Shown: positions 3,791 through 34,670 of the stretch, piece after piece
Numbering within the stretch: the stretch's first letter is position 1
Layout of the letters: each line of letters starts with the position of its first letter
NCBI GenBank assembly: GCA_002841765.1
Contig: PHAV01000002.1
Coordinates: forward strand, 201,604-265,603
Reading direction: 5' to 3'
Origin: Deltaproteobacteria bacterium HGW-Deltaproteobacteria-4
Lineage (GTDB): Bacteria > Desulfobacterota > Desulfuromonadia > Desulfuromonadales > UBA2197
DNA length: 64,000 nt
Made by a program: the position numbers and the translations under genes
Notes under the pieces: generated by a model
Told to the model about the DNA's origin: nothing
Database searches by the model: none
Seen by the model: the letters and a program-made list of their open reading frames with translations, nothing else

Positions 3791-4035
3791 GGTTGAAAAA
3801 ATCCTCACCACTCCCGGTACGGAGGGGGGCGCGCTCTTTTCCGGGGGTCGAGCAGGAAAAGATCCTTGCTTTTCCTCGCGAGAAAATGCAATAAAACTAG
3901 CTTGGCTTTTTAGCTGAAGATGTCCAGAGGCGGTGATTATCCTCCGGTTTATCGATGCTGTGAAGGGGCCGGCAGGTTCGCTTCTGGAGGAATGGTTAGC
4001 TAAGGACGGCCGGGAATTGCCCGGCGGTTCAGGGA

Positions 4036-4791: not shown

Positions 4792-4820
4792 GCTATCTAA
4801 TGATAAATAAAGGTAAATTT

Positions 4821-5882: not shown

Positions 5883-5946
5883 GTCGTGAGATATTGAACA
5901 GCGGTTCAGAGTGAGCACTTCGAACTTTGCTATGTCTGTATAAAGG

Positions 5947-8091: not shown

Positions 8092-8130
8092 AGCAGACAA
8101 CCTTCAAGATCGGGTTTCTCGCAAGGTTTT

Positions 8131-8260
8131 AGCTCCCCTCCTTTTTTAAGGAGGGGCTGGGGGGGGTAAGATTTTTGGTGTTGTCTTCGTTTTATCCTTA
8201 AGATTGATGAATATCAAAGCAACCACCCCTAACCCCTCCTTGGAAGGAAGGGGGGGGACT
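8131..8260. mobile_element. ~130 bp MITE-like element with ~37 bp imperfect terminal inverted repeats, each itself a hairpin
   Basis: Left end AGCTCCCCTCCTTTTTTAAGGAGGGGCTGGGGGGGGT, right end ACCACCCCTAACCCCTCCTTGGAAGGAAGGGGGGGACT, AT-rich non-coding core. Confidence 0.6.
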
Positions 8261-8408
8261 TAAGGCAACCAAAAACAAGATATAGTTTTCGTCCCTACAG
8301 ATTTTCACAGAATCTCACCGCGACAAAATTGATTCAGACCTTGCTTTCAACCGCTAAGATTATATGTAGAGCTCGCAAAGCAGATCATTTACGTGGAGGA
8401 ATGACTCA

Positions 8409-9692
8409 ATGAAAGAACGGATTATTTCAGTCGTCGGTCTTGGTTACGTCGGCCTCCCGGTCGCCGTCGCCTTTGGCAAATGCCGCAAAACCGTCGGTTT
8501 TGATATCAACCCCACCCGCATCGCCGAGCTCAAAGCCGGACACGACCGCACCGATGAAGTCACCGCCGACGACTTGGCGGCCGCCGATATCCTCTTTACC
8601 AATCAAATCAGCGAACTTTCCCTGGCGGATTTTCATATTGTCGCTGTCCCTACACCGGTTGACGATGCCAAACAACCTGATCTGACGCCGATGCTGCGCG
8701 CCTCCGAGACTGTCGGCAAAGCCCTGAAGAAGGGGGATATTGTGGTTTATGAATCGACCGTCTACCCCGGCGTCACTGAAGACGAATGCGTGCCGGTACT
8801 GGAGCGGTTCTCGGGACTGTGTTGCGGCCGCGACTTCACCGTCGGCTATTCACCGGAACGGATCAATCCCGGTGACAAGGAACACACCTTCACCAAAATC
8901 ACCAAGGTCGTGTCCGGTCAGGATGCCGCCACTCTCGATATCGTTGCCGAAGTTTACGGTTCGGTCGTTACCGCCGGCATCCACCGCGCCCCGTCGATCA
9001 AAGCCGCCGAGGCCTCCAAAGTGATCGAAAATACCCAGCGCGATCTCAATATCGCCCTGATGAACGAACTGGCGATCATCTTCGACCGCATGGGGATTGA
9101 TACCCGCGATGTCCTTGAAGCCGCTGGCACCAAGTGGAATTTCCTCAAATTTTCACCGGGGCTGGTCGGTGGCCACTGTATCGGCGTCGACCCTTATTAT
9201 CTCACCCATAAAGCCGAAAAGATCGGCTACATCCCCCAGGTCATCCTTGCCGGCCGTCGCATCAACGACGGCATGGGCAAGTTTATTGCCCAGCGCACCG
9301 TCAAGGAGATGAGTCTGGTCGGACACTGTCCCGGCAAAGCCGTTGTCACCGTCCTCGGCCTGACCTTCAAAGAGGATTGCCCGGATCTGCGTAATTCGCG
9401 GGTCATCGACATTATTCACGAATTGGAGGATTACGGGATTACTGTCCAGGTGCATGACCCCCACGGTGACGTCGCTGAGGCTCTCCACGAATACAATGTC
9501 CTCCTCGTTCCCTTTGCAGAACTGCAACCGGCTGCCGCCGTCGTCGTGGCGGTGGCGCACCAGGAGTATCGCGCTCTTTCGGTCGAACAGCTCAAGAAAC
9601 TGATGAAAGAAAATCCCGTCCTCATCGATGTCAAGTCGATTTGTGATCCGGTCGCAGTGCAAGGGGCGGGGATCCGTTTTTGGCGGCTGTAA
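8409..9692 (+). CDS. Nucleotide-sugar dehydrogenase (UDP-GlcNAc/GalNAc 6-dehydrogenase, WbpO/TviB-like)
   Basis: GLGYVGLP, YESTVYPG, GYSPERINPGD, KVIENTQRDLNIA, PGLVGGHCIGVDPYYL, GLTFKEDCPDLRNS. Confidence 0.92.
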   Translation: MKERIISVVGLGYVGLPVAVAFGKCRKTVGFDINPTRIAELKAGHDRTDEVTADDLAAADILFTNQISELSLADFHIVAVPTPVDDAKQPDLTPMLRASETVGKALKKGDIVVYESTVYPGVTEDECVPVLERFSGLCCGRDFTVGYSPERINPGDKEHTFTKITKVVSGQDAATLDIVAEVYGSVVTAGIHRAPSIKAAEASKVIENTQRDLNIALMNELAIIFDRMGIDTRDVLEAAGTKWNFLKFSPGLVGGHCIGVDPYYLTHKAEKIGYIPQVILAGRRINDGMGKFIAQRTVKEMSLVGHCPGKAVVTVLGLTFKEDCPDLRNSRVIDIIHELEDYGITVQVHDPHGDVAEALHEYNVLLVPFAELQPAAAVVVAVAHQEYRALSVEQLKKLMKENPVLIDVKSICDPVAVQGAGIRFWRL

Positions 9693-9722
9693 ACCAGACA
9701 AGCAGACAAGAGATTAACAGGG

Positions 9723-9810
9723 CGCAGATAACATCTGAAGAGGCATGATTAAGCATAGAGTTAAATGTTTAGACCAATCGGAAGTTATCAGTTTTGATCA
9801 GCGTCCCATG
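9723..9810. repeat. Dispersed non-coding repeat family B, copy 1
   Basis: 9733-9810 aligns by hand to 38886-38965 at 62/80 columns, same orientation. Confidence 0.75.
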
Positions 9811-10201
9811 GTACTGGTTCAGATTTTCATAGATTCGGGAGTCTGCGTCTCTTGATTTAAACCTAAGTATTCATAATCTTATATATTTATTGGCTTTAGT
9901 TGCTGTAAGGGGAAAAGTAAAGGATTTTCTAAATTATTTTTTTCAAATTAAAATATAAGTCATATAGTCTACATTAGCAATATTGCTAAGTTAGAAAAAA
10001 TTGTTTTGCCCCGCCAAACATCCTGAACTCCTCCCCCCCTTGCATAAAACTGCTCTTTCCCCCCATAGTTTGATTAAGTAAATCCCCTACTTTTGACTGG
10101 GGAATCTACCCGTCGCGTTGTGAGCTAATTTCTGCCGGTTGGGCAGTTTAGTGCTGATTGACTTTTTATTGCATTGAATTATTTTAATTCAGGGAGGTTT
10201 C

Positions 10202-10780
10202 ATGCGTTCACTATTCTTGCGGGGTTTTATCCTCCTTGCCCTCCTTGGCGGCTTGCTGCCGTCCAGCCTCTGTCACGCAGCTGACACCAGATATAAACGT
10301 TCGGTAGAGAAATATACGATTCCGGATGTGACCCTGACCAATCAGGATGGCAAAAAAGTTCAGCTGAAGTCCCTCCTTGAAGCCGACCATCCCGTTGTTG
10401 TCGACTTTATCTATGGCACCTGTACCACCATCTGTCCGGTTCTCTCTGTCGGTTTTCTCAATCTGCAAAAGAAAGTCACGGCCAGCGGCGGCAAGGTGAA
10501 GCTGGTCTCGATCACGATCGACCCGGAAAATGATAACCCCAAGATCTTGAAAGAATATCTGCAGCGTTATCGCGCCAAGCCGGGCTGGGATTTCCTGACC
10601 GGCAGTCGTGCGGACATCAATACGGTGATGCGGGCCTTTGATGCCTATATTCCCGACAAGATGTCGCACTATCCGATCAACCTCATCCGTTCCCCCAAGG
10701 ACGGCAGCTGGGTGCGTCTCTTCGGCATCATGAGCGGCAAAGAGTTTATAGACGAGTATCAACAGGTGACAGGGAAATGA
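10202..10780 (+). CDS. SCO1/SenC-family copper chaperone, exported
   Basis: Signal peptide, DVTLTNQDGK, CxxxC (CTTIC), VSITIDPENDNP, WDFLTG, conserved His (MSH). Confidence 0.9.
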   Translation: MRSLFLRGFILLALLGGLLPSSLCHAADTRYKRSVEKYTIPDVTLTNQDGKKVQLKSLLEADHPVVVDFIYGTCTTICPVLSVGFLNLQKKVTASGGKVKLVSITIDPENDNPKILKEYLQRYRAKPGWDFLTGSRADINTVMRAFDAYIPDKMSHYPINLIRSPKDGSWVRLFGIMSGKEFIDEYQQVTGK

Positions 10781-12474
10781 CCCGCATCGGGATATTCTTG
10801 CTTGTCTGGTTTTTCATCTCCTTCGGACCGCGCGCTCAGGCCGAGGACCAGGGGATGACGACCAAGCTCAGCAATGCCGAGATCATGCGTCTCGGCGAAC
10901 AGATGTACCGGTATGGCCTTCTCCCTTCCGGTGAACCGATGGAAGCCTTCATTCGTGGCGATATTCCCGTCGACAGCACGGCTTTTTCGTGCTCCAGCTG
11001 CCATCTGCGCGCCGGACTGGGATCTTATGAAGGGGGTGTCGTCACCCCGCCGACCACCGGGCGCCGGCTTTATCAACCCTATCGGCGGCCCCCCTCCTTT
11101 GATGACGTCATTGACCAGGCCGGCCGTTATGTTTATGCCAAGACCATCCCGCATCGCGGCGCTTATAGCAAAGAGAGTCTGGCGATTGCTCTGTGGAATG
11201 GCATCGACCCGGGCGGCCAGGAGTTCAATCCGGTCATGCCGCGTTATCTGCTGTCTGAGCGCGATATGGATATTTTGATCCGCTATCTCGAAGAGCTCTC
11301 GGCGAACGATTCACCCGGAGTGACCGGGTCTTCTTTTTCTTTTGCGACGATTATCACCGACGATGTCAGCGCCGAAGACCGTCAGGCCTTGCTCGTCCCC
11401 CTCGAGCGCTTTGTCGCCGCAAGAAATCAGCAGGTCCGGATGTATGACGATTTCATCAAGTTCGGTTATACCCCGACGAACGATATGAAGTATGCCTTCC
11501 GTCCGGCGTCGCTGACCGTCTGGGAGCTCAAGGGGCCGCCGGAGACCTGGCCGGACCAGTTGCAGGCCTATTACGACAAGGGACCGGTCTTTGCCATCCT
11601 TGGCGGGATATCCAATAGCGATTGGCGCCCGATCCACGAATTTTGCGAAGCGCAGCGTTTGCCTTGTCTCTACCCGATCACCAATTACCCGGTGGTCTCC
11701 GAAACGGATTGGTACACCGTCTATTTCAACAAAGGTTTTTATCAGGAAGGGGAGGGGGCGGCCCTTTACCTGAAGAATAGCGAAGACTTCTCCGAAGATG
11801 ACAAAATTCTGCAGCTGGTGCAGGATTCCCTCGCCGGCAAGGCTCTGTCCGCCGGATTTGACAATACCTGGAGCAACTTGCAGCGCCCGGCGGCCAAGAC
11901 TCTCCTCCTCAGTAAAGAACAGCTCCTTGACCAAAAGTTTTTGGCGGCCCTGTTGAAAAAGAATAAAGCCGATGTCCTGCTCCTCTGGGGCGACGGCGAT
12001 CTGGTCCCGGCGCTGCCGGCCATCGTCTCCAAGCTGGCGGCCGGAGCGCAGATCTTTGTTTCATCGACCTTCCTCGGCAAAGAAACCTCCTTGATCGCCG
12101 AATCAATCCGGAGCCGGGTCTTTATTACCTTTCCGTTTCGGTTGACCCCTTTTGTCGGTTCCAAAGAGAGTTTTGACGCCAAGGTTCCGACTCTGACCAC
12201 CGCCAAAGATTTCGGTGACCGCAGGATCACCAGTCGCACCGAGACCATGCTGCAGCAGTCCGCTCTGCAGGGGTTAAAACTCCTTTACGACAACCTTTTT
12301 CGCGATTATTTACTGGATGTCATGAGCATGCAGATGGATCAAATCGTCTTTGATTATGAACGTCTCAGTTTTGGTCCCGGACAACGCTACACCTCTAAGG
12401 GATGTTACATCCTGCAGCTCGGCGCAGGAGCGGATCCGCAGTTAATCCCCCGTAGTGAGTGGGTGATGCATTAA
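10777..12474 (+). CDS. Monoheme c-type cytochrome fused to a periplasmic-binding-protein-like domain
   Basis: Signal peptide, single CxxCH (CSSCH), MPRY distal Met, C-terminal alpha/beta region (VFAILGG, LPCLYP); ATGA overlap with SCO gene. Confidence 0.75.
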   Translation: MTRIGIFLLVWFFISFGPRAQAEDQGMTTKLSNAEIMRLGEQMYRYGLLPSGEPMEAFIRGDIPVDSTAFSCSSCHLRAGLGSYEGGVVTPPTTGRRLYQPYRRPPSFDDVIDQAGRYVYAKTIPHRGAYSKESLAIALWNGIDPGGQEFNPVMPRYLLSERDMDILIRYLEELSANDSPGVTGSSFSFATIITDDVSAEDRQALLVPLERFVAARNQQVRMYDDFIKFGYTPTNDMKYAFRPASLTVWELKGPPETWPDQLQAYYDKGPVFAILGGISNSDWRPIHEFCEAQRLPCLYPITNYPVVSETDWYTVYFNKGFYQEGEGAALYLKNSEDFSEDDKILQLVQDSLAGKALSAGFDNTWSNLQRPAAKTLLLSKEQLLDQKFLAALLKKNKADVLLLWGDGDLVPALPAIVSKLAAGAQIFVSSTFLGKETSLIAESIRSRVFITFPFRLTPFVGSKESFDAKVPTLTTAKDFGDRRITSRTETMLQQSALQGLKLLYDNLFRDYLLDVMSMQMDQIVFDYERLSFGPGQRYTSKGCYILQLGAGADPQLIPRSEWVMH

Positions 12475-12619: not shown

Positions 12620-15600
12620 ATGAAGAAACAAGTGTCGAAAGTTTTTTGGAGGCTGGGGCTGTTCACCGCCCTGACAACCCTTGGAGGGGGGCTGGCGTTT
12701 GCGGCTGACACAGTCGAGGATCCGATTCTCGCTGCGAAAACCGCTCAGGTTTATAGCCAGATGGAGCAGCGCGTCACCGATGAAGAGCGGGCCCAGGCAG
12801 CGGCGGCCCTCAAGGCTTTGCGCATACAGGTCTATGAAGCCAAAAAGGCGGTCGCCAAGTCGAAGGATGGCGCTCCGGCCAAAGGGATCGAAGTGCTTGA
12901 TTTCAAAGCCATCCCCACCGGCCCCTTTGACGCCAATGGCAAACCGTCCGTTCCCGACTACTACACCACCGCCAACTGGGCGAACAGTCCCCCTTTGGCG
13001 AAATTTGTCGATACCCTGCCGGGTCTTGGCCCGGACAATGCCAACAATCTCGGCAAATATCTGCCGGTTGCGGTCCCGGATACCGTGACTTATCCGGGCT
13101 CGGACTATTACGAGATCGATCTCGTCGAATACAATCAGCAAATGCACTCCGACCTCCCCAAATCAGGGACCAAGCTCCGTGGTTACGTGCAGGCCAACGT
13201 CAATGGGGGAAGCAACACGGCCTGTGGGAACGAGACTGGCGTCGAGTGTAATGATCCCATGCCGGTTCTTTATCTCGGTCCGGTGATCGTCTCCGAAAGA
13301 GACCGTCCGGTCCGCATCAAGTTCACCAACCGTCTCCCGAATACCGGAGCCGGCGGCGATCTCTTTATCCCGGTTGACACCTCGGTCATGGGCGCCGGGA
13401 CCGGCCCGGCTTATATGGGGGTCAGTCGCGGTTTAGGTGAGCCTTGCAACAACGATGTCGAACCGAATGGCTGCGCTACGTATCCGCAGAATCGCGGTAA
13501 CATCCATATGCATGGCGGACGCACTCCCTGGATCAGTGACGGGACGCCGCATCAGTGGATTACTCCCGCCGATGAGAATACCCCCTTCGTTAAAGGGGTA
13601 AGTCTGCAGAATGTTCCGGATATGCCCGATCCGGGGGACGGCGCATCGACCTATTACTTCACCAACCAGCAAAGCGCCCGGTTGATGTTCTATCATGACC
13701 ATTCCTTCGGCATTACCCGCCTCAACGTTTATGTCGGTGGAGCCGCCGGATACCTGATCACCGATGAGTATGAACAGGAGTTGATTAACGATGGTCTTAT
13801 CCCCGAAGACCAGATCCCTCTGGTGCTGCAGGATAAAACTTTTGTCGATGCGTCCGAGATTCGCAAATACGATCCCCTCTGGAACTGGGGCAGCGGCGCC
13901 GTTGACCCGGTGACCAAAGTCCGCGAGCCGGTCGAAGGCGACCTCTGGCTGCCGCATGTCTATATGCCTGCCCAAACCTCGATCGCCGGCTTCGGCGGCG
14001 TCAATCCTTTCGGGCGCTGGATGTATGGCCCCTGGTTCTACCCGGCGACAGCCGTGGAAAAAGGACCGGTTGCCAACCCCTATTACGATCCGGATTGCAG
14101 CAGCACAGTCCCCTATATCCTTGCCGACTGCCAAACTCCCGGCCAGCCGGAACAGATCCCCGGCACTCCCAACACCTCGATGGGGATGGAAGCTTTTCAG
14201 GATAGCGTCGTCGTGAACGGGACAGCTTTCCCGACCCTGACGGTCGATCCCCGGGCTTATCGTTTCCGCATTCTTAATGCGGCCAGCGACCGCTTCTGGA
14301 ATCTCTCATTCTATGAAGCCGACTCTGACCCGAACAATATCAGCCCCGATCCACGCCTCGACCCGACTTCCCCGAGTTATCTGCCCGGTCGTTCCAACAG
14401 AACCGAAGTCAAAATCCTGCCGGCCTCCATTGATCTCGCCAAGCAGAACAATTGGCCGGAAAACTGGCCGGTTGACGGCCGCGACGGCGGCGTCCCCGAC
14501 CCCGCGACCAAGGGTCCGAGCTTTCTGCAGATCGGGACCGAAGGCGGTTTCCTGCCGAAACCGACCATCCGCGAGGCGCAGCCGGTCACCTGGATGAGCG
14601 ATCCCACCGCTTTCTGGGTCGGCGTGGTTGACAAAACCGGTCTGGCCCTCGGCCCGGCCGAGCGTGCCGACGTTATCGTTGACTTCAGCGCGTATGCCGG
14701 CAAAACCCTCATCCTTTACAACGATGCACCGGCCGCGTGGCCAGCTCGCGTGGCCAGCTACGATTACTTCACCGGCGCAGAAGATCTGCGTTCCGGCGGC
14801 GGTTACGGTGCCGGCGGAGTCTACAATCCGATCACCGGTGAATGGGAAGGCGGCCACGGCATTCTGCCCGGTTATGCCCCGAATACCCGGACGGTCATGC
14901 AGATCGTCGTCACCGGCGGCACCTCCGGCTTGGAGGCTGTCGATGAACCCTACGAATTCGACCCGGTTGCCCTGCATGAAGTGTTTGTCCCCACTGATCC
15001 GGAAACCGAAAGTCTCTTCTCCCGGGCCCAAGAGCCGATCATTGTCGGTCAAGCGGCTTATCAGGATGTGTATCCTGATTCCTACTTCCCGACCAACTTC
15101 CCCTGGGAAGGGGTCTCCCAGATTAACGACCAGATGCTTAATTTCGTGACGGTCAATAACACCGTTGACAACCCGCAGCATGTTGTCGCCATTCAGGAGC
15201 CCAAAGGGATTCATGATGAAATGGGCGCTTCTTTCGACCCGATCTACGGTCGGATGAGCGGTAACCTCGCCATGCAGTTGCCCAACCCCACCACCCTCAA
15301 TGCCCTGCTGATCCTTTATGGCTTCTCGGATATTCCGACCGAAGTCATCGAAAACTCGACAGAGCTGGATGTCAGTATTGTCCCCGGCACCACCACCCTG
15401 GCCGATGGCACCCAGATCTGGAAGATTTCGCACAACGGGGTCGATACCCACCCGATTCACTTCCATATCTTCGACGTGCAGTTGATCAATCGCGTCGGCT
15501 GGGATGGCCAGATTGCCCTCCCCGAAGAGAACGAGCTTGGCTGGAAAGACACCATCAAAGTCAGCCCGCTCATGGACACCATCGTTGCCGTACGGCCCCG

Positions 15601-18600
15601 TGCTCCGGCACTCCCCTTCGGCATCACCAACAGTCTGCGCCCGCTCAATCCAGCCATCCCGATCGATTCACCGATGGGCTTCAACAGCGTCGACTGGCAA
15701 ACCGGCGAAGCGAGAAACGAAGCGGTCACCAATGTCCTGTACAACTTCGGTTGGGAGTATGTCTGGCATTGCCACATCCTCAGCCATGAAGAGATGGATA
15801 TGATGCGGCCGATCGTGCTGAATGTCGCTACCGCCAAAGTGAGTGATTTCAGCTCCCCGGCCCCTGGCACTGCTCCGCAGGGTGTCGATGTCACCTGGAT
15901 GGATCCGACCCCGGTTGATTATGAAAATAATAGCGGTTTCGGCAATCCTGACAACGAAATCGGTTTCAAAATCTGGCGCTCCGCCGGCGCTACCGGCCCT
16001 TACACCAAGGTCGGCGCAGCTCTTGCCAACCAGACCACCTATAACGATAAAGACGGCTCCATTGCTGACGATTATGTCATCGAAGCTTTCAACGCCAGCG
16101 GCTCGACCTTCTCCTGGGTGAGTCCGGTCTCCCTTACTGTTGATGGCGGCTTTATTGCCCCGGCCACATTCACCCTGACGGCGACCGTCACACAGCCCTT
16201 GCTCCAGAGCGTCACCAAGGTGGAGTTCTTCAACGGCGACACCCTGATCGGCACTGATCTTGACGCTCCTTACACGGTCACTTTAACAGGGATGCAGCAA
16301 GGGTCTTTCGATTTAAAGGCGAGAGCCACGACCGATACACCGACAGAGAAAGGCCTTGAGGCTTTTGATACACTGACAGTCGATGTCAACACCAGTGGTC
16401 TGGCTGCTGATTTCACCGTCAATAACGGCGTTGAAATCGGCGTTTGTGATACCAGCACCCTTTATGACGCCAGCACCGGTGGCACCGCTACGGCCTGGGA
16501 ATGGCTGGTCAACGGCGTGACTTACACCACGCAAAATCCTGACCTCCCCGTCCTTCCGGCCGGGATTTACCCTGTCACCCTGAAAGTCACCGGCACCAGC
16601 GGTGAAGTCGCATCGGTGACCCAAGATGTAGAAATTGTCAATCATCCCCCGACCGCCGATGCCGGTGGACCGTACACGCTCAATTTTAATGGGACCGTTG
16701 CTCTTACAGGTTCCGGTGCTGATGCTCTCGATCCCTGCAACACCGCTTTCACCTATGCCTGGGATATTGATGGTGATGGAACATTTGAATATTCGCCCAA
16801 TCGGACGATCAGGTATTCCGTTATCCAGCCTTTACTTGGCTCGGGCGATTATCCGATCACCTTTAAAGTGACGGATTCAGGTGGTGCGTTTGCTACGGCT
16901 GATACAACTTTAAGTGTCGGGCCGGCACCGAATGCTGATGCTCCGGCAACCATCACTGTTCCGGCGTACAGTTCGACCGGCAGCTACACCATCTCCTGGG
17001 CTCCGGCAACCATCGTCGGCGCGACCTACACCCTCGAAGAAGCGACGGATAGCAATTTTACTAACGCCACCGTCGTCGCTTCCGGACTCACCACCACCTC
17101 AAAAGCGATTACCGGCAAGACCGGTGGTCTTTACTTTTATCGTGTCCAAACCATCGCCGTCGCCACCGTCCCCAGTACCTGGACCGCTGGTAATAACCCC
17201 TGCGCTATTCTGATCACGGCCATAACTGACCCTGTCAACGGCGCAAACTTCAATCCCGGCCAGTTGACGGCCATTGTCGGGACTGCGACCACCCCGACTG
17301 GTTATGTTGTCGCCAGCATGGCGTTTTACGAAAACGGTGTCCTGATCGGTACGGACAGCGATGGCGCACCTTATACCGTCGCTTACAACCCGACCAGTGG
17401 CGCCCACCTCCTGACCGCGACCACGACTTATGTTGGTGGCGCAGTATCGCCTTCATCTGATGTGGCGATTGCAATTGCCGGGGTCGATGCACCGGTCCTG
17501 ACCACAAGCAGCGCAATCTATGATCTTGGTGGCACCATCACCTTGAATGTCACACCGGCAGCCGTTGTCGGGGTTTTTCCTGTACCGACAGTTGTCGCTG
17601 TTGCCTACTATGAAAATGGCACACCCATTGGCTTTGATGACACTGCACCGTACAGCTTGGCCTGGGTACCGGCGACGGGTGGTGCAAAGGGTGTGACGGC
17701 TGTGGCTCTTTACAGCAATGGCATGTCAGCGACTTCGGCGGTGTTGTCGTTGTCATTGAACACGCAGGTTGCTGCTCCTGGTTTGATTTCTGTGCCAACC
17801 ACTAGTCCGACCGGGACTTATACAGTATCGTGGGGAGCCTCGGCGACGAGTGAAGTGACTTATGTGCTGGAAGAGTCTACGACAAATACTTTTGATGTCG
17901 TGACGTCACATCTGCCATCTAATTGGGCAACGACATCATTTGATATTATGGGAAAGTCTGGCGGGACATATTACTATCGCGTCTCGGCTGTGAAAGCCCC
18001 AATGGTAGCTAGTAATTGGACTGTTGATGGGAATGGTATATTTGTCGGTGCTCAAGCTCCTGCATTACTCAGCGTACCTGCGATCCCAACTAACGGGAAG
18101 GCCACCGTTCTGGCAGCAACCTCGCCAACACCTGGTGCAATATATCTCTTCGAATACAGCACTGACGGTTCGACTTGGACTGTAGCCTCTAATAGCACCA
18201 ATCGCGAGCCAATCATCACCTTACCGGCTCCGAATAACTACCAGTTCCGGGTTTCGGTGACAGCTACAGGCTATCAGCAGAGCAAATACACCGCTGGAAG
18301 TAATAATTGTAATTGGGTTGTTGTCCAAGCAACGGCACCGGTGACATTATCTGTTCCCGTAGCTCCAACCAACAGCAAGGTTGCTGTTCTGGCTGCGACC
18401 TCGCCGACGCCCGGTGCAATTTATCTTTTCGAATATAGTACTAACGGGGCGACATGGAGTATTGGCTCTAATAGTACTAATCGCGGGCCAACAATCACAT
18501 TGCCGGCACCCGGCAACTACCAGTTCCGGGTTTCAGTGACAGCAACCAATTTTACGCAGAGCGATTACACATCTGGCACTAATAACTGCAACTGGGTAGT

Positions 18601-19723
18601 CGTGCCAGCAACTGCACCTTCAACGCTATCTGTACCCCTGACTTCAACGAATGGGAAGGTCACGGTCCTGGCCGCAACCTCACCGACGCCGGGTGCTATT
18701 TATCTTGTCGAATACAGCACTAACGGATCGACCTGGAGTATCGGCTCCAATAGCACTAATCGCGGGCCAACCATCACACTGCCGGCACCTGGCAACTATC
18801 AGTTCCGGGTTTCAGTGACAGCAAGCAATTTTACGAAGAGCAGTTACACCCTTGGTAGCAACAACTGCAGCTGGGTAGCACCTCCTGCTACAGCACCGTC
18901 GTCTTTAAGTGTCCCTGCAATATCAACCAACGGAACAGTTGCATTGTTGGCGTCAATCTCTGCGACACCTAGTGCTATTTATTTGTTCGAATACAGTGTT
19001 GACGGTTCGACTTGGAGTACTGGCTATAGCGGTACAAATATTAACCCAACCATAACCCTGCCGGCTTCTGGCAACTACCAGTTCCGGGTTTCAGTAACAT
19101 CAGCAGCCTTTTCACAAAGTACGTTCACAATGGGCGGTAACAACTGTTATTGGTCAGGTGTAGTCCAGGCAGCGGCGCCAACAAGCCTGTCTGTACCCGT
19201 AGCGCCAACCGATGGAAAGGTTACGGTACTGGCCGCAACCTCGCCAACGCCGGGCGCGATTTATCTTGTCGAATACAGTACCGACGGTTTGACCTGGTCG
19301 AGTATCGGCTCAAATAACAGCGGACGCCAACCAACTATCACCCTGCCTGCCCCTGGCAACTACCAGTTCCGTGTTTCGGTGACAGCCGCAGGATATGCAC
19401 AAAGCACTTACACTGCCGGTAACAATAACTGCAATTGGGTGATTGTACCTGCAACGGCACCAGCGACACTGTCTGTGCCTTTAACTACAACGATCGGGAA
19501 GGTCACGGTTCTGGCCGCTACCTCACCGACGCCGGGTGCTATTTATCTTGTCGAATACAGTACCGACGGTTTGACCTGGTCGAGTATCGGCTCTAATAAC
19601 AGCGGACGCGAACCAACCATCACACTGCCAGCACCTGGTAACTATCAGTTCCGCGTATCGGTGACCGCAACGAACTTCACACAAAGTGGTTTCACCACTG
19701 GCAGTAATAATTGTAGCTGGTAG
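12620..19723 (+). CDS. Giant secreted multicopper oxidase (OmpB-like) with Ig-like, PKD, Fn3 domains and six C-terminal repeats
   Basis: All four MCO copper motifs: HMH (13505), HDH (13694), HPIHFH (15449), HCHILSHEEMDM (15767); Sec-type signal ending AFA; RBS GGAGG before ATG 12620. Confidence 0.92.
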   Translation: MKKQVSKVFWRLGLFTALTTLGGGLAFAADTVEDPILAAKTAQVYSQMEQRVTDEERAQAAAALKALRIQVYEAKKAVAKSKDGAPAKGIEVLDFKAIPTGPFDANGKPSVPDYYTTANWANSPPLAKFVDTLPGLGPDNANNLGKYLPVAVPDTVTYPGSDYYEIDLVEYNQQMHSDLPKSGTKLRGYVQANVNGGSNTACGNETGVECNDPMPVLYLGPVIVSERDRPVRIKFTNRLPNTGAGGDLFIPVDTSVMGAGTGPAYMGVSRGLGEPCNNDVEPNGCATYPQNRGNIHMHGGRTPWISDGTPHQWITPADENTPFVKGVSLQNVPDMPDPGDGASTYYFTNQQSARLMFYHDHSFGITRLNVYVGGAAGYLITDEYEQELINDGLIPEDQIPLVLQDKTFVDASEIRKYDPLWNWGSGAVDPVTKVREPVEGDLWLPHVYMPAQTSIAGFGGVNPFGRWMYGPWFYPATAVEKGPVANPYYDPDCSSTVPYILADCQTPGQPEQIPGTPNTSMGMEAFQDSVVVNGTAFPTLTVDPRAYRFRILNAASDRFWNLSFYEADSDPNNISPDPRLDPTSPSYLPGRSNRTEVKILPASIDLAKQNNWPENWPVDGRDGGVPDPATKGPSFLQIGTEGGFLPKPTIREAQPVTWMSDPTAFWVGVVDKTGLALGPAERADVIVDFSAYAGKTLILYNDAPAAWPARVASYDYFTGAEDLRSGGGYGAGGVYNPITGEWEGGHGILPGYAPNTRTVMQIVVTGGTSGLEAVDEPYEFDPVALHEVFVPTDPETESLFSRAQEPIIVGQAAYQDVYPDSYFPTNFPWEGVSQINDQMLNFVTVNNTVDNPQHVVAIQEPKGIHDEMGASFDPIYGRMSGNLAMQLPNPTTLNALLILYGFSDIPTEVIENSTELDVSIVPGTTTLADGTQIWKISHNGVDTHPIHFHIFDVQLINRVGWDGQIALPEENELGWKDTIKVSPLMDTIVAVRPRAPALPFGITNSLRPLNPAIPIDSPMGFNSVDWQTGEARNEAVTNVLYNFGWEYVWHCHILSHEEMDMMRPIVLNVATAKVSDFSSPAPGTAPQGVDVTWMDPTPVDYENNSGFGNPDNEIGFKIWRSAGATGPYTKVGAALANQTTYNDKDGSIADDYVIEAFNASGSTFSWVSPVSLTVDGGFIAPATFTLTATVTQPLLQSVTKVEFFNGDTLIGTDLDAPYTVTLTGMQQGSFDLKARATTDTPTEKGLEAFDTLTVDVNTSGLAADFTVNNGVEIGVCDTSTLYDASTGGTATAWEWLVNGVTYTTQNPDLPVLPAGIYPVTLKVTGTSGEVASVTQDVEIVNHPPTADAGGPYTLNFNGTVALTGSGADALDPCNTAFTYAWDIDGDGTFEYSPNRTIRYSVIQPLLGSGDYPITFKVTDSGGAFATADTTLSVGPAPNADAPATITVPAYSSTGSYTISWAPATIVGATYTLEEATDSNFTNATVVASGLTTTSKAITGKTGGLYFYRVQTIAVATVPSTWTAGNNPCAILITAITDPVNGANFNPGQLTAIVGTATTPTGYVVASMAFYENGVLIGTDSDGAPYTVAYNPTSGAHLLTATTTYVGGAVSPSSDVAIAIAGVDAPVLTTSSAIYDLGGTITLNVTPAAVVGVFPVPTVVAVAYYENGTPIGFDDTAPYSLAWVPATGGAKGVTAVALYSNGMSATSAVLSLSLNTQVAAPGLISVPTTSPTGTYTVSWGASATSEVTYVLEESTTNTFDVVTSHLPSNWATTSFDIMGKSGGTYYYRVSAVKAPMVASNWTVDGNGIFVGAQAPALLSVPAIPTNGKATVLAATSPTPGAIYLFEYSTDGSTWTVASNSTNREPIITLPAPNNYQFRVSVTATGYQQSKYTAGSNNCNWVVVQATAPVTLSVPVAPTNSKVAVLAATSPTPGAIYLFEYSTNGATWSIGSNSTNRGPTITLPAPGNYQFRVSVTATNFTQSDYTSGTNNCNWVVVPATAPSTLSVPLTSTNGKVTVLAATSPTPGAIYLVEYSTNGSTWSIGSNSTNRGPTITLPAPGNYQFRVSVTASNFTKSSYTLGSNNCSWVAPPATAPSSLSVPAISTNGTVALLASISATPSAIYLFEYSVDGSTWSTGYSGTNINPTITLPASGNYQFRVSVTSAAFSQSTFTMGGNNCYWSGVVQAAAPTSLSVPVAPTDGKVTVLAATSPTPGAIYLVEYSTDGLTWSSIGSNNSGRQPTITLPAPGNYQFRVSVTAAGYAQSTYTAGNNNCNWVIVPATAPATLSVPLTTTIGKVTVLAATSPTPGAIYLVEYSTDGLTWSSIGSNNSGREPTITLPAPGNYQFRVSVTATNFTQSGFTTGSNNCSW
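18044..19720 (+). repeat. Six tandem intragenic repeats of 279-282 bp (93-94 aa)
   Basis: Units start at about 18044, 18323, 18602, 18881, 19163, 19445; consensus AP..LSVP....GKVTVLAATSPTPGAIYL.EYST.G.TW...PTITLPAPGNYQFRVSVTA..NNC.W. Confidence 0.95.
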
Positions 19724-19752
19724 TTGTTAAGTCTGTTATATAGTTGTTCATG

Positions 19753-19790
19753 AACAAACCCCGTCTTATTAGACGGGGTTTGTTTTATTT
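19753..19790 (+). terminator. Rho-independent terminator after the multicopper oxidase
   Basis: 14-bp stem AACAAACCCCGTCT/AGACGGGGTTTGTT, TATT loop, followed by TTATTTT. Confidence 0.9.
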
Positions 19791-19960: not shown

Positions 19961-21430
19961 GTGTCTAATCTTAAAAATAAAATTGTCTCCAGTCTCTCCT
20001 GGAACTTCATGAGTCAAGGGGTTACACAAGTTGTTTCATTATTAATCATGATCCTGCTCACTAGGTTGTTGTCGCCCCGTGAGTTTGGATTAGTGGCGAT
20101 GGTAACGGCAATTTCAGGCTTCGTCGGCATCTTTGCCGAAATGGGGCTTGGCGCCGCTTTGATTCATCAACAGAAGATAGACGACGAACAGTTATCCTCG
20201 GTCTTTTGGCTTAACCTGTTCCTTGGTGTGGTACTCACAGCTGTCTTTGTGTTGGCTGCCCCTTTGGTTGCCGATTTTTATAATGAACCTCTCTTGTTGG
20301 GCATCACGATAGTTGTCGCGTTAAATTTTATTATCAATGCGTTAACCATTGTTCAACGGATACTCGCCACCAAGGCACTCGACTTTCAGACATTAGCAAT
20401 CTCAGAAGTTGCATCGACTCTAATATCTGGTGGCATTGTCCTCTTCTTAGCCTATCAGGGGTACAGTTACTGGAGCATCGTTTGGCAAACTTTGATCATT
20501 TCTGTTGTCAGCAACATAATCCTCTGGCAACGTAGCACCTGGCGTCCCCGATTTTGTTTTAGTTTTGCTTCGATTCGTGGCCTGATGCGTTTTGGAGGGT
20601 ATGTTATCGGCACCCATACTCTCGATTACTGGACGCGCAATATCGATAATCTTCTTATCGGAAAATTTTTTGGTTCAGAAGTCCTCGGACTTTACTCCCG
20701 CGCTTATTCCTTTCTTGTTTTCAGAATTAACAGTGTCTCTCGGATTGTTTCCAGAGTTTTCTTTCCAGCCATTGCCGGGATACAGCATGACAAAGAAAGG
20801 GTCAAAAAGATCTTTCTTAAGACAATCGGTGCCATAGCGTTGGTTACCTTTCCACTGACGGTAGGTCTCTTTGCGACAGCAGACAACTTTGTTTTGACCT
20901 TACTCGGCGCCCGCTGGATGGAGATGGTGCCGATCGTGCGTGCCCTTTGCCTGCTTGGTCTGACGACGGCAGCTGGTTCGTTGACCGCAAACATCTTTCT
21001 TTCACAAGGTGAATCGGGTCTCCATTTTCGTCTCGGATTGATCCTTAAAATGACAGTTGTCGCTGGCATTGTACTCGGTCTGCGGTGGGGAGCCTTTGGG
21101 GTAGCTCTTTGCTACGGTTTGGTGACACTGGTGAACGTCTATCCCACTATCCGCATAGCCGGTCGCCTCATTGGGATGGGTTTTAACGAGTACCTTAAAA
21201 CATTGGCTCCAGCCTTTACTTGTTCTTTGATCATGGCGGGTCCGGTCTGGATATTGCCGAAACTCATCTTCACGGACAATGCTGTTTGGCTGATTCTAAT
21301 CACGCAAATATTGTTGGGAGGAGTGCTGTACGTCGGCACCCTACATCTGTTCCGAATTAAAATTTATCTGGAAATTTTAGAGCTCATGCAGGTTAAATTG
21401 TACGGCAAATCGACGCATATAAAGTGTTAA
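19961..21430 (+). CDS. wzx: Wzx flippase (PST family)
   Basis: Multi-pass hydrophobic protein; LTRLLSPREFGLVAM, EMGLGAALI, IDNLLIGKFFGSEVLGLYSRAY. Confidence 0.9.
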   Translation: MSNLKNKIVSSLSWNFMSQGVTQVVSLLIMILLTRLLSPREFGLVAMVTAISGFVGIFAEMGLGAALIHQQKIDDEQLSSVFWLNLFLGVVLTAVFVLAAPLVADFYNEPLLLGITIVVALNFIINALTIVQRILATKALDFQTLAISEVASTLISGGIVLFLAYQGYSYWSIVWQTLIISVVSNIILWQRSTWRPRFCFSFASIRGLMRFGGYVIGTHTLDYWTRNIDNLLIGKFFGSEVLGLYSRAYSFLVFRINSVSRIVSRVFFPAIAGIQHDKERVKKIFLKTIGAIALVTFPLTVGLFATADNFVLTLLGARWMEMVPIVRALCLLGLTTAAGSLTANIFLSQGESGLHFRLGLILKMTVVAGIVLGLRWGAFGVALCYGLVTLVNVYPTIRIAGRLIGMGFNEYLKTLAPAFTCSLIMAGPVWILPKLIFTDNAVWLILITQILLGGVLYVGTLHLFRIKIYLEILELMQVKLYGKSTHIKC

Positions 21431-21443
21431 TGGAATATTTTTT

Positions 21444-22751
21444 ATGAAAATTCTTATAGTTTCACGTTACTGTGCTCCTCCAAGTTTTCATGGTTCGGCA
21501 CAACATGTTCAGACCTTCGCCAAAGCCTTGGTCGAAGGCGGACATGAGGTTCGGGTTATTTCTGGTGAAGAGGAAGCAGGAACAATTGAGGTCGACGGTT
21601 ACACTGTCACTAAAGTGCAGCTACCACCACAAGCGAAGGGATTCCAAAGACTTCTCGATGGTCGATTCCCAGACGTGCACAACCGTAGACTGGCGGCCAC
21701 GATTTTTGAGAGTTGGAAACCAGATGTCTTGCATGTCGGTGTTTTCATGCGGATGGGTGAGTTTATTTTTGAGGCAGCAGAGAGAAAAATACCTGTAGTG
21801 TTGATGGTGCATGATTACGCCATGCTTTGCCTGAAAAAGTATCTGCAACATTCCGACGGGTCTGTCTGTAACGGGCCACAACCACAATTATGTCATAAAT
21901 GTATTAAGCAAACAGCCGGTTCGAGACTTCGCTTTTTTAGTTCGTTGACAGCTTTTCCTGGAACCGGGCTTCTTTTGGGTCGGGAAAGACATATCAATTT
22001 CCAGCTCGATCGCGCCGTCAAGGAATCTTTCATTTTTATGGAACATCTGCGCTCTGTTGTGAATCGCTATATCGTGCAAACACCGTTGGCTCCTGGAATT
22101 CTCGCATCGTGCGGCATCCCTGAAGAGCGTTGCTACTTTGTCCAGCAATTCATAGGCGAAGAAAAACTCGTTCATTATCCGAAAGCCAGCGGGGTCCCGG
22201 GGACGGATCGTCCTATACGGATTGGTTATGTTGGTCGCTGGTCGGCAGAAAAAGGGATTGAAGTACTCAGCGACGCATGCCGAACTTTTGGCGAAAATGA
22301 TGTTGAAGTATGGCTGATTGCCAAAGGGGCTGATTTACAGTCGGTAAAAGCCTTGTTCGGCGATGAAGCCGTGGATGCAGGAAGAGTAAGGCTCTTCAAT
22401 GATCTCGCTGGTGCCCGCTTAGCCGCGCAGATCGCACAGTTGGATGTTATGGTGATTCCCTCCATATGTCACGACAATAGCCCTCGCGTTCACCTTGAAG
22501 CGTTGGCTCAGGGAGTTCCGACTATCGTTTCCGATTCGGTCGGCAACCGCCATTTGATTTGCGACGGGATCAGCGGTCGCATCTTTCCCAGCGGTGATGC
22601 AATTGTCTTGGCAAAAATTTTACAAGAAATTGTCGAAAATCCCAGAATACTTGATGAGTGGCGGAATCAGTTGACTAAATTGCCAGATAGACAAGAATGG
22701 TATCAGTCACTATTACAGGTCCATCAAGACTTAGTTACGGTCAAATCATGA
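21444..22751 (+). CDS. Glycosyltransferase family 4
   Basis: MKILIVS, GHEVRVI, HDYAMLC, GYVGRWSAEKG, PSICHDNSPRVHLEALAQGVP. Confidence 0.88.
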   Translation: MKILIVSRYCAPPSFHGSAQHVQTFAKALVEGGHEVRVISGEEEAGTIEVDGYTVTKVQLPPQAKGFQRLLDGRFPDVHNRRLAATIFESWKPDVLHVGVFMRMGEFIFEAAERKIPVVLMVHDYAMLCLKKYLQHSDGSVCNGPQPQLCHKCIKQTAGSRLRFFSSLTAFPGTGLLLGRERHINFQLDRAVKESFIFMEHLRSVVNRYIVQTPLAPGILASCGIPEERCYFVQQFIGEEKLVHYPKASGVPGTDRPIRIGYVGRWSAEKGIEVLSDACRTFGENDVEVWLIAKGADLQSVKALFGDEAVDAGRVRLFNDLAGARLAAQIAQLDVMVIPSICHDNSPRVHLEALAQGVPTIVSDSVGNRHLICDGISGRIFPSGDAIVLAKILQEIVENPRILDEWRNQLTKLPDRQEWYQSLLQVHQDLVTVKS

Positions 22752-26105: not shown

Positions 26106-26109
26106 TTTC

Positions 26110-28322: not shown

Positions 28323-28369
28323 GTCTTCGGGCGGAAAACAGGTTTTCCCAGCTATTTTCATGTCAGGTC

Positions 28370-32120: not shown

Positions 32121-32144
32121 CTGTGGGTGTGCAGGAGTTTTAAA

Positions 32145-33329: not shown

Positions 33330-33333
33330 GGGG

Positions 33334-33885: not shown

Positions 33886-33887
33886 TT

Positions 33888-34649: not shown

Positions 34650-34670
34650 ATCGGAGGTCAAAATCAATTT

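What the first reader, a model, noticed from the sequence alone, without database searches (positions are those of the whole stretch)
12620..19723. ~2370 aa multicopper oxidase with an adhesin-like stalk of about 1300 aa
Seen: a complete T1/T2/T3 ligand set in roughly the first 1070 aa. It is followed by three Ig-like domains (e.g. VEFFNGDTLIGTD, AFYENGVLIGTD, AYYENGTPIGFD), two PKD-like domains (WEWLVNG..YPVTLKVT; PTADAGGPY..YAWDIDGDG), Fn3-like domains and six tandem repeats. It has a Sec-type signal without twin arginines and no recognisable PEP-CTERM, LPXTG, RTX or beta-barrel anchor, and it ends in NNCSW. Inference: the catalytic head is projected on a long beta-sandwich stalk, perhaps to span the capsule, with the terminal repeats as the anchoring or ligand-binding end.
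Basis: partly seen in the sequence, partly recalled or inferred. Interest (0 to 1): 0.68.

Follow-up and report, generated by a model that had tools for sequence, protein, structure and literature searches.

The report
Long-tailed secreted multicopper oxidase (OmpB/MofA type)
This is a real, intact 2367-residue secreted copper oxidase of the known OmpB/MofA type carrying a tail of 14 small beta-sandwich modules; such long variable tails are common in its family, and the more unusual point is that its three-gene operon lies inside the variable part of a capsule/exopolysaccharide gene cluster.

Summary
A single ORF (ATG 12620 to stop 19723, 2367 aa) encodes a Sec-signal protein. Its first about 1070 aa carry all twelve CotA-type copper ligands. 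The tail has 14 beta-sandwich modules: Fn3, Big_7, two PKD, Fn3, two Big_7, Fn3, then six 93-aa repeats. No RTX, LPXTG, PEP-CTERM or hydrophobic C-terminus is present.

It is a member of the known OmpB/MofA family of large secreted multicopper oxidases. The SCO1/SenC copper chaperone and the MofC-like cytochrome c gene described for that family lie directly upstream. Long variable tails are common: listed homologs are 1310-2540 aa, 12 of 119 are at least 2200 aa, and one (P0003) has the same module order.

The six terminal repeats are ordinary Fn3 modules (AlphaFold pLDDT 85; best PDB matches are Fn3 domains). They belong to the same family as two inner stalk modules and also occur on subtilases and cytochromes. 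They therefore look like stalk extension, not a dedicated anchor.

The capsule idea gains circumstantial support. The operon lies between ugd and wzx of a Wzx/Wzy-type polysaccharide locus, as in several close relatives, and it falls in the locus's fast-diverging part. Coriobacteriia relatives end in cell-wall-binding CWB2 repeats.

Verdict: new member of a known kind, moderate interest.

The parts
9700..10201 (+). AT-rich intergenic region upstream of the three-gene operon (candidate promoter region)
   Evidence: Read directly. Two weak sigma-70-like matches at 9940-9968 and 10158-10185, not above the shuffle expectation. The DNA identity to the sister locus L083 drops across this region.
10202..10780 (+). 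SCO1/SenC-family copper chaperone with signal peptide and CxxxCP motif (CTTICP)
   Evidence: Pfam SCO1-SenC E 2e-19; sequence. Conserved directly upstream in Desulfuromonadota relatives at 67-77% identity.
10777..12474 (+). MofC-like protein: one CxxCH haem motif (CSSCH) plus a periplasmic-binding-protein-like domain
   Evidence: Sequence. Pfam Peripla_BP_6 is sub-threshold: 24.4 bits, below the 31.7-bit cut-off (E 2.7e-5). Conserved next to the MCO in relatives at 58-67% identity. The family description is in PMC5566968.
12620..12703 (+). Sec-type signal peptide (aa 1-28, predicted cleavage AFA|AD), no twin arginine, no lipobox
   Evidence: Read directly.
12710..12874 (+). N-terminal Ala/Lys/Glu/Gln-rich extension (aa 31-85), helical by composition (inferred, not predicted); present in only some homologs
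   Evidence: Sequence. A similar segment is in P0027 and P0111 and is absent from P0003, P0005 and P0009. No Pfam match.
12902..15829 (+). Multicopper oxidase head (aa ~95-1070): a CotA-like three-cupredoxin enzyme with large insertions and all 12 copper ligands
   Evidence: PDB phmmer to CotA E 3e-34, six aligned blocks. Motif positions. Pfam Cu-oxidase_2 36.8 bits against a cut-off of 20.4. 47-73% identity over the head in at least 594 stretches of GTDB species genomes.
15857..16135 (+). First Fn3-like module after the head (aa 1080-1172)
   Evidence: Sequence pattern only; no Pfam hit here. The equivalent position in relatives carries PF00041/PF25833 (precomputed Pfam lists). An Fn3 domain is described for OmpB in PMC5566968.
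16136..16390 (+). Big_7 Ig-like module 1
   Evidence: Pfam Big_7 E 2.8e-10.
16391..16639 (+). PKD-like module 1 (sub-threshold)
   Evidence: PKD_4 E 0.0074, TcfC E-set E 0.001.
16640..16939 (+). PKD module 2
   Evidence: K319L-like_PKD 56.5 bits in the whole-protein scan; 29.2 bits when scanned alone.
16940..17221 (+). Fn3 module (type 'A', aa 1441-1534) with the conserved C-terminal Cys (C1528)
   Evidence: 35% identical to terminal repeat 1 and alignable over its full length.
17222..17773 (+). Big_7 Ig-like modules 2 and 3
   Evidence: Pfam Big_7 E 2e-10 and 5.2e-6.
17774..18055 (+). Fn3 module (type 'A', aa 1719-1812)
   Evidence: 29% identical to terminal repeat 1.
18056..19720 (+). Six tandem 93-94-aa Fn3 repeats (aa 1813-2367), each with one Cys in NNC(N/S/Y)W; the last ends the protein
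   Evidence: TRF 279 bp x5.7. Repeat coordinates. Alignments A3 and A5. AlphaFold2 pLDDT 85, pTM 0.71. Foldseek best PDB matches are Fn3 domains, best TMq 0.79.
19752..19785 (+). Intrinsic terminator (15-bp stem, T-run) 29 nt after the stop codon
   Evidence: sequence.
2369..9692 (+). Conserved 5' flank of the polysaccharide locus: Pgm/Pmm, CpsB phosphatase, Wza, Wzc, Ugd
   Evidence: Pfam. 93-94% protein identity to L083, except CpsB at 73%.
19961..34649 (+). Variable part of the polysaccharide locus: Wzx flippase, glycosyltransferases (GT4 and GT2 families), a candidate Wzy, DegT aminotransferase, a hexapeptide acyltransferase
   Evidence: Pfam. No DNA similarity to L083. GC 0.46-0.52 against 0.58 in the flanks.

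Best explanation
What it is. The gene encodes a member of the OmpB/MofA family of large secreted multicopper oxidases. It is made as one transcription unit with a SCO1/SenC copper chaperone and a MofC-like mono-haem cytochrome c.

Proposed route (all inferred). The apo-protein is exported unfolded through Sec, since it has no Tat motif. It receives its four coppers outside the cytoplasm with help from the SCO1 protein. It is then passed across the outer membrane, by analogy with G. sulfurreducens OmpB, through a type II secretion system.

Catalysis. The N-terminal head of about 1000 aa is a CotA-like three-domain oxidase. It takes single electrons from a substrate at the T1 copper and reduces O2 to water at the T2/T3 cluster. 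The substrate is not known. Fe(II), Mn(II), Cu(I) or a phenolic/quinol compound are the family's candidates, possibly supplied via the MofC cytochrome.

The tail. The C-terminal 1290 aa form a chain of 14 independently folding Fn3, Ig-like and PKD modules. If extended, this chain would be roughly 50 nm long (an estimate from the usual 3.5-4 nm per module). I infer that it acts as a spacer and a multivalent, low-affinity tether that holds the enzyme in the cell's own exopolysaccharide layer. The six terminal repeats would be extra length and avidity, not a distinct anchor.

Shown versus inferred. Shown: the ORF, the ligands, the module types, the operon partners, the locus position and family variability. 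Inferred: the secretion route, the EPS tethering, the substrate and the tail's physical length.
For: Identity:
- All copper ligands are present and align to CotA at E 3e-34.
- At least 594 GTDB genome stretches encode the same head at 47-73% identity.
- The sco1-mofC-MCO order is conserved in Desulfuromonadota relatives. It matches the published OmpB/MofA cluster description (PMC5566968).
- OmpB is secreted by the Pul-type T2SS (PMC3543383) and is surface-associated (PMC5566968).

Tail as a modular spacer:
- Homolog lengths are 1310-2540 aa with very different Pfam sets behind the same head.
- Tail length after the head ranges from about 105 to 1431 aa in 80 GTDB loci.
- The repeat unit is Fn3 and is related to inner stalk modules.
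- The same module occurs in 304 representative proteins, mostly as C-terminal arrays on other secreted enzymes.

Link to EPS:
- The operon lies between ugd and wzx.
- The site is identical in L083. P0003 is followed by wzx and glycosyltransferases. P0009 is flanked by wza-wzc-cpsB and sugar-modifying genes. D. carbonis P0027 is followed by an epimerase and ugd.
- Against L083, protein identity falls from 93-94% (Pgm, Wza, Wzc, Ugd) to 82% (SCO1), 63% (MofC), 61% (head), 49% (proximal tail), 28% (distal repeats) and none (Wzx). The operon therefore belongs to the locus's variable part.
- EPS anchoring of extracellular redox proteins has a precedent in Geobacter (PMC3495685).

Topology: Coriobacteriia homologs end in 3x CWB2 at E 3e-47.
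Against: - No carbohydrate-binding module or any known anchor is detectable in the tail.
- Many Geobacter-type loci, and L086, carry the operon without detectable EPS genes within 10 kb. EPS linkage is therefore not a family rule.
- The apparent association of long tails with EPS neighbours (median 842 vs 388 aa) is confounded. The loci were chosen in a biased way, phylogeny is not controlled, and my tblastn-based detection of EPS genes is crude.
- Gene adjacency does not prove physical interaction.
- The secretion route, the substrate and localisation rest on analogy with one organism.
- The head structure was not modelled.
Confidence: 0.6

Rival explanations
1. The tail is a mineral adhesin. 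The Fn3/Ig/PKD chain binds Fe(III)/Mn(IV) oxide or other solid surfaces and brings the oxidase, or the cell, to the mineral. This was proposed for the Fn3 domain of G. sulfurreducens OmpB.
For: The literature proposes that the OmpB Fn3 domain and EXXE motifs attach to Fe(III) oxides, and OmpB is needed for reduction of insoluble Fe(III) oxides (PMC5566968; PMC3495685). The protein has four ExxE motifs in the head, and the tail is net acidic (76 D+E against 37 K+R).
Against: ExxE is a four-residue pattern expected by chance in 2367 aa. No metal- or mineral-binding domain was detected. The extreme between-strain variability of the tail is not what binding to a chemically invariant mineral would predict. 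The position inside the EPS locus is left unexplained.
Confidence: 0.15
2. The tail is a passive spacer or stabiliser on an enzyme that is simply released into the medium or biofilm matrix. Its length and repeat number drift by recombination, or under phage or predator pressure, without any specific binding role. The EPS-locus position is a hitch-hiking accident in a recombination hot spot.
For: Fn3 modules are generic linkers in secreted bacterial enzymes; the PDB matches include cellulosomal and glycoside-hydrolase Fn3 modules. The same module is appended to unrelated enzymes. Many family members lie outside EPS loci. Toxin-antitoxin genes and low GC mark the locus as a variable region.
Against: The same insertion site or neighbourhood recurs in several non-identical genomes. 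In monoderm relatives the C-terminus is a bona fide wall anchor, which argues that retention at the cell matters for the family.
Confidence: 0.2
3. One reading: the six terminal repeats are a distinct anchoring or ligand-binding end, different in role from the rest of the stalk.
For: The repeats are at the C-terminus, where relatives carry recognisable binding modules such as CWB2 and FG-GAP. Each has a conserved Cys, and the family-wide conservation is 328 of 351 instances. Arrays of this module reach the C-terminus in 82 of 147 carrier proteins.
Against: The fold is plain Fn3. The repeats are homologous to inner stalk modules of the same protein. The close relative L083 has four repeats of a different subtype and P0003 has three. 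No anchor motif follows them. The CV39L lectin hit is far below its cut-off (33 vs 350 bits), and that lectin is a propeller, not an Fn3 (PMC11186620).
Confidence: 0.12

Closest known systems
OmpB (GSU1394) and OmpC (GSU2657) of Geobacter sulfurreducens
   Same: Both are large secreted multicopper oxidases with a laccase/CotA-type ligand set and an Fn3 module behind the head. Both have a gene cluster with a SCO1/SenC chaperone and a MofC-like cytochrome c (PMC5566968). The query's relatives come from the same bacterial group, Desulfuromonadota.
   Different: The tail here has 14 modules (about 1290 aa) ending in six Fn3 repeats, and the gene lies inside a Wzx/Wzy polysaccharide locus. From memory, OmpB is about 1300 aa; this was not checked. 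Direct sequence comparison with GSU1394 was not possible with these tools.
MofA of Leptothrix discophora (putative Mn(II)-oxidising multicopper oxidase; mofABC operon)
   Same: It is described as homologous to OmpB, and it is clustered with mofC, which encodes a cytochrome c plus periplasmic-binding domain (PMC5566968).
   Different: No mofB (peptidyl-prolyl isomerase) homolog is seen next to the gene here; a SCO1 chaperone is present instead, as in Geobacter. The host is probably an anaerobic metal or sulfur reducer, not a Mn oxidiser.
CotA laccase / bilirubin oxidase (three-domain multicopper oxidases, PDB 1GSK, 9BD5, 2XLL)
   Same: All four copper-binding motifs and the three cupredoxin domains align.
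   Different: The head is about twice as long. It has insertions at about aa 410-507, 566-674, 702-924 and 987-1043, plus about 150 extra N-terminal residues. It is secreted, and it carries a 1290-aa tail.
Gram-positive surface enzymes and adhesins with an N-terminal functional domain, a repeat stalk and a C-terminal wall anchor (for example CWB2-anchored proteins)
   Same: The order is the same: functional head, chain of beta-sandwich modules, then the C-terminus. Coriobacteriia members of this same MCO family really do end in 3x CWB2.
   Different: This protein is from a diderm lineage and has no CWB2, LPXTG or other recognised anchor.

Membership tests
Three-domain multicopper oxidase (laccase/CotA type) | Four conserved copper motifs: HxHG, HxH, HxxHxH and HCHxxxHxxxxM (10 His, 1 Cys, axial Met) | tested here: met
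   H296/H298, H359/H361, H944/H947/H949, H1050/C1051/H1052/H1056/M1061, aligned residue by residue to CotA.
Three-domain multicopper oxidase (laccase/CotA type) | Significant profile match to cupredoxin MCO domains | tested here: met
   Pfam Cu-oxidase_2 at 36.8 bits against a cut-off of 20.4. PDB CotA E 3e-34 in six collinear blocks. NCBIfam equivalogs (PhsA, CueO) are far below their cut-offs, so it is not one of those specific enzymes.
Three-domain multicopper oxidase (laccase/CotA type) | Copper content and O2-dependent oxidase activity | not testable with these tools
   Needs purified protein.
OmpB/MofA-type large secreted MCO | Enlarged (~1000 aa) head shared across the family | tested here: met
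   47-73% identity over query residues ~1-1077 in the 80 GTDB loci kept, out of at least 594 matching stretches. About 120 listed proteins have the same head.
OmpB/MofA-type large secreted MCO | Neighbouring genes for a MofC-like cytochrome c/periplasmic-binding protein and a SCO1/SenC copper chaperone | tested here: met
   SCO1-SenC E 2e-19. The 565-aa protein has CSSCH and a sub-threshold Peripla_BP_6 match (24.4 bits, cut-off 31.7). Synteny holds in relatives. The definition is from PMC5566968.
OmpB/MofA-type large secreted MCO | Fn3 domain following the catalytic region | tested here: inconclusive
   The module at aa 1080-1172 has an Fn3-like sequence pattern but no Pfam hit. Relatives carry PF00041/PF25833 in their tails. 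Other tail modules are Fn3 by fold.
OmpB/MofA-type large secreted MCO | Direct sequence similarity to GSU1394 or to L. discophora MofA | not tested
   Neither reference sequence was retrievable with the available collections. Membership rests on the features above and on Geobacter/Desulfuromonas homologs.
OmpB/MofA-type large secreted MCO | Type II secretion and outer-surface location | not testable with these tools
   Known only for G. sulfurreducens OmpB (PMC3543383, PMC5566968). No T2SS genes lie in the window.
RTX / type I-secreted giant adhesins (LapA, SiiE type) | C-terminal RTX nonapeptide repeats (GGxGxD) and a T1SS signal, with no N-terminal Sec signal | tested here: not met
   No GGxGxD anywhere, and a clear Sec signal peptide is present.
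Sortase-, exosortase- or rhombosortase-sorted surface proteins | C-terminal LPXTG, PEP-CTERM or GlyGly-CTERM motif followed by a hydrophobic helix and a basic tail | tested here: not met
   The last 60 aa are an Fn3 repeat ending NNCSW. Hydropathy of the last 19 aa is -0.6. The only LPxTG (LPNTG at 239) is inside the head.
CV39L/BP39L propeller lectins | NCBIfam NF052350 at or above its cut-off; seven-bladed propeller fold | tested here: not met
   33 bits against a cut-off of 350. The repeat is modelled as Fn3. The nature of the lectin is from PMC11186620.

The most novel reading that the evidence does not exclude
The sco1-mofC-MCO operon is a functional, type-specific component of the capsule/EPS locus. 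On this reading, the oxidase's Fn3/Ig tail has co-diversified with the polysaccharide made by the neighbouring variable genes and binds it specifically. The cell would then wear an enzymatically active, O2- or metal-reactive capsule, and exchanging the locus would swap sugar and enzyme together.
Probability: 0.2. Interest if true: 0.6.

Novelty: new member of a known kind. Interest (0 to 1): 0.33.

Why it matters

This example adds no new kind of protein. It does show three things:
- The family has a constant head and a freely shuffled beta-sandwich tail.
- The tail end is a genuine wall anchor in monoderm members.
- In one Desulfuromonas-like lineage the operon sits in the variable core of a capsule locus and diverges as fast as the sugar genes.

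The third point turns the question of how the oxidase is held at the surface into a testable hypothesis: tethering in the cognate exopolysaccharide. The specific claim of a unique 'adhesin-like oxidase' should be marked down, because dozens of equally long relatives exist.

Tried and rejected
1. The CV39L-lectin hit in the repeats was rejected. The score is a tenth of the cut-off, the lectin is a propeller, and the repeat is Fn3.

2. The Y_Y_Y, F5/8-type-C and PPC hits in the repeats are all sub-threshold once a single repeat is scanned. They are best read as generic beta-sandwich similarity.

3. AlphaFold2 on two repeats with a 5-row alignment gave an unusable model (pLDDT 50). It was repeated on one repeat with a 52-row alignment (pLDDT 85).

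4. The search for homologous proteins with the repeat profile returned a single hit and not even the query, so it was uninformative. The exhaustive profile search was used instead.

5. The metagenome scan with MofC returned one locus only, so an unbiased sample of operon contexts was not obtained.

6. Tail length against EPS neighbourhood gave a Mann-Whitney p of 8e-5. I do not rely on it. L081-L084 were picked because they were long, phylogeny is not controlled, and within Desulfuromonadota the difference is not evident.

7. Dockerin-like C-termini in L013 and L046 were suspected from the sequence but were not confirmed by Pfam.

8. The exact protein is not on record in the contig index. The window was traced through its Tex protein to GCA_017973775.1, contig JAEMOH010000029.1.

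9. The head structure was not modelled, because both prediction jobs went to the repeats.
Full report

Yes. The only long ORF in 12605-19723 is on the + strand. A GGGAGG ribosome-binding site lies 7 nt before ATG 12620, so the product is 2367 aa.

The four multicopper-oxidase motifs are all present. They align residue by residue with Bacillus CotA (PDB 9BD5/1GSK, E about 3e-34, six collinear blocks):
- HMHGG: H296, H298
- YHDHS: H359, H361
- HPIHFH: H944, H947, H949
- HCHILSHEEMDMM: H1050, C1051, H1052, H1056, M1061

The head is about twice the length of CotA. It has insertions at roughly aa 410-507, 566-674, 702-924 and 987-1043, plus an N-terminal extension.

Behind the head the tail is as follows:
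- an Fn3-like module (aa 1080-1172, assigned by pattern only)
- three Big_7 Ig-like modules, all above the Pfam cut-off
- one clear PKD module and one sub-threshold PKD module
- two further Fn3 modules
- six tandem units of 93-94 aa (TRF 279 bp x5.7; 62-82% identical to one another)

The signal peptide is Sec-type (AFA|AD) with no twin arginine. There is no GGxGxD, no C-terminal LPXTG, no PEP-CTERM and no hydrophobic end. One refinement applies: the second 'PKD-like' domain is only weakly supported.

**2. What are the six repeats?**

The repeats are 29-35% identical to the two inner 'Fn3-like' modules of the same protein and align with them end to end.

An exhaustive profile search of 1.84 billion representative proteins found the module in 304 proteins, 107 of them at E <= 1e-10. 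It nearly always occurs in multiple copies, and in 82 of 147 carriers the array reaches the C-terminus. The carriers include subtilases, another multicopper oxidase and a cytochrome c7-like protein.

With a 52-row alignment, AlphaFold2 gives a confident model (pLDDT 85, pTM 0.71). Its best PDB matches are fibronectin type III domains, with TM-scores normalised to the query of about 0.65-0.79 for the closest ones.

The repeats are therefore ordinary Fn3 modules, an expansion of a module type already used in the stalk. They are not a recognisable anchor or lectin. The weak CV39L-lectin hit (33 bits against a 350-bit cut-off) is spurious, because that lectin is a seven-bladed propeller (PMC11186620).

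**3. What family is it?**

The two genes directly upstream form a unit with the oxidase. They encode a SCO1/SenC copper chaperone (CTTICP motif) and a 565-aa protein with one CSSCH haem motif and a periplasmic-binding-protein-like domain. The unit is preceded by a 500-bp AT-rich gap and followed by a 15-bp-stem terminator.

This is the cluster published for G. sulfurreducens OmpB (GSU1394) and its homolog MofA of Leptothrix: a large oxidase, a mofC-like cytochrome gene and a SCO1/SenC gene (PMC5566968). The order sco1-mofC-oxidase recurs in the Desulfuromonadota relatives retrieved, with SCO1 at 67-77% and MofC at 58-67% identity.

The head is very widespread. At least 594 stretches in GTDB species genomes encode it at 47-73% identity. 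They span Desulfuromonadota, Nitrospirota, Actinomycetota, Coriobacteriia, Chloroflexota and others.

OmpB is reported to be secreted by a Pul-type type II system (PMC3543383). [quoted passage not shown]

I could not align the protein directly with GSU1394 or MofA. Membership therefore rests on these defining features.

**4. Is the size or architecture unusual?**

No. The 119 best homologs are 1310-2540 aa long, and twelve of them are at least 2200 aa. Behind the same head they carry very different Pfam sets: Big_7, PKD, fn3, He_PIG, FG-GAP, InlB B-repeats, F5/8-C and Y_Y_Y-like arrays.

Several examples were read in full:
- P0003 (2124 aa) has the same module order as the query and three terminal repeats of the same subtype.
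- P0027 of Desulfuromonas carbonis, P0023, P0018 and P0111 end in multi-copy tandem arrays of other beta-sandwich units (from about 4 to more than a dozen copies by reading the sequences).

In the 80 GTDB loci the tail ranges from about 105 to 1431 aa, with a median near 390. The query is at the long end of a continuous distribution.

**5. Which end faces the cell?**

Coriobacteriia members of the family (L030, L027 and similar) end in three CWB2 cell-wall-binding repeats (E 3e-47). In those organisms the C-terminus is the cell-proximal anchor and the oxidase head is distal. Geobacter-type members end in FG-GAP or InlB-type modules.

This supports the 'head on a stalk' picture at family level. 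The query itself has no identifiable anchor.

**6. Context.**

The window comes from GCA_017973775.1, contig JAEMOH010000029.1.

The operon lies inside a Wzx/Wzy-type polysaccharide locus with this gene order:
- pgm, cpsB, wza, wzc, ugd
- sco1, mofC, the oxidase
- wzx, then a series of glycosyltransferases, a candidate polymerase, degT and an acyltransferase
- a toxin-antitoxin island
- wecA

This position is not a family rule. Most Geobacter-type loci, and L086, show no EPS genes within 10 kb. It does recur in the relatives that share most of the tail:
- L083 (P0013) has the identical insertion site.
- L081 (P0003) is followed by wzx and glycosyltransferases.
- L084 (P0009) lies between wza-wzc-cpsB and sugar-modifying genes.
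- D. carbonis P0027 is followed by an epimerase and ugd.

Comparison with L083 is the most informative result. Protein identity to L083:

| Protein or segment | Identity to L083 |
|---|---|
| Pgm, Wza, Wzc, Ugd | 93-94% |
| SCO1 | 82% |
| MofC | 63% |
| Oxidase head | 61% |
| Proximal tail | 49% |
| Terminal repeats | 28% |
| Wzx | not alignable |

The nucleotide picture agrees: about 88% in the flank, about 71% across sco1-mofC, about 69% in the head, and nothing beyond.

The operon therefore belongs to the fast-diverging, probably recombining, type-specific part of the locus. That part also has lower GC (0.46-0.52 against 0.58).

**7. Most likely mechanism.**

Shown: an intact oxidase with a full ligand set, a Sec signal, an adjacent copper chaperone and cytochrome, and a tail of 14 beta-sandwich modules.

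Inferred:
- The protein is exported by Sec and loaded with copper outside the cytoplasm with SCO1's help.
- It crosses the outer membrane by type II secretion, as OmpB does.
- It is retained in the cell's exopolysaccharide layer by many weak contacts along a tail about 50 nm long. That figure is an estimate from typical module sizes.
- The six terminal Fn3 units add length and avidity.

The substrate is unknown. Candidates from the family are Fe(II), Mn(II), Cu(I), a quinol or the MofC cytochrome.

EPS anchoring of extracellular redox proteins has a precedent in Geobacter (PMC3495685).

**8. Rivals.**

- The tail is a mineral adhesin, which is the published suggestion for the OmpB Fn3 domain.
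- The tail is a passive spacer on a released enzyme, and the locus position is a hitch-hiking accident.

Each is weighed in its own section of this report. None is excluded, and the last is the least supported.

**9. Verdict.**

The protein is a new member of the known OmpB/MofA kind. Its length and 'adhesin-like' tail are normal for the family.

The moderately interesting residue is the recurrent placement of the operon in the variable core of a capsule locus. This suggests, but does not show, that the enzyme and the polysaccharide work together.

Noticed in passing
window 35146-38771: A cluster of type II toxin-antitoxin genes lies inside the polysaccharide locus, between the last glycosyltransferase and wecA. 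It comprises DUF2442, MazE/MazF (- strand), a PIN-domain toxin and a Phd/HigB-like pair. L083 also has a toxin-antitoxin pair (NTP_transf_2/HepT) between wzc and ugd.
   Followed up: partly
window aa 1528, 1897, 1990, 2083, 2176, 2271, 2365 of the oxidase (DNA ~17199-19714): Each Fn3 module of this type carries a single Cys near its C-terminal end (NNC.W). The Cys is conserved in 328 of 351 family instances. Many relatives have a second Cys 5-6 residues later (C-x5-C) that could pair with it. This protein lacks the second Cys, which leaves seven apparently unpaired cysteines along the tail.
   Followed up: partly
window 9692-10202 versus L083 7063-7461: There is a sharp step in identity between two related genomes exactly at the ugd/sco1 intergenic region. 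Nucleotide identity is 88% upstream, about 71% across sco1-mofC, about 69% in the oxidase head and absent beyond about 16900. This is the pattern expected at a recombination boundary of a type-specific capsule locus.
   Followed up: yes
window 12710-12874 (aa 31-85 of the oxidase): An Ala/Lys/Glu/Gln-rich N-terminal extension (…EERAQAAAALKALRIQVYEAKKAVAKSK…), which looks helical by composition. It is present in D. carbonis P0027 and Anaeromyxobacter P0111 but absent from P0003, P0005 and P0009. It has no Pfam match and its role is unknown.
   Followed up: no
L081 1-9342: In the metagenomic contig carrying P0003, a second large multicopper oxidase, a 755-aa protein, a 537-aa protein and a 1018-aa protein with faint Y_Y_Y and PKD matches lie directly upstream. 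This suggests tandem duplication of the system.
   Followed up: no
window 28370-29833: A 487-aa ORF in the middle of the glycosyltransferase run has no significant Pfam match (GtrII-like E 8e-4 only). Its position makes it a candidate Wzy-type polymerase.
   Followed up: no
L013 and L046, last ~70 aa of the oxidase: The C-termini of two Geobacteraceae homologs (…HADVAPL…DGKINLGDVSVLLMRAVG…) look dockerin-like by eye, but no Pfam dockerin match was returned.
   Followed up: partly
window 18001-38000: GC content falls to 0.46-0.52 across the terminal repeats of the oxidase and the variable polysaccharide genes, against 0.55-0.60 in the flanks.
   Followed up: no
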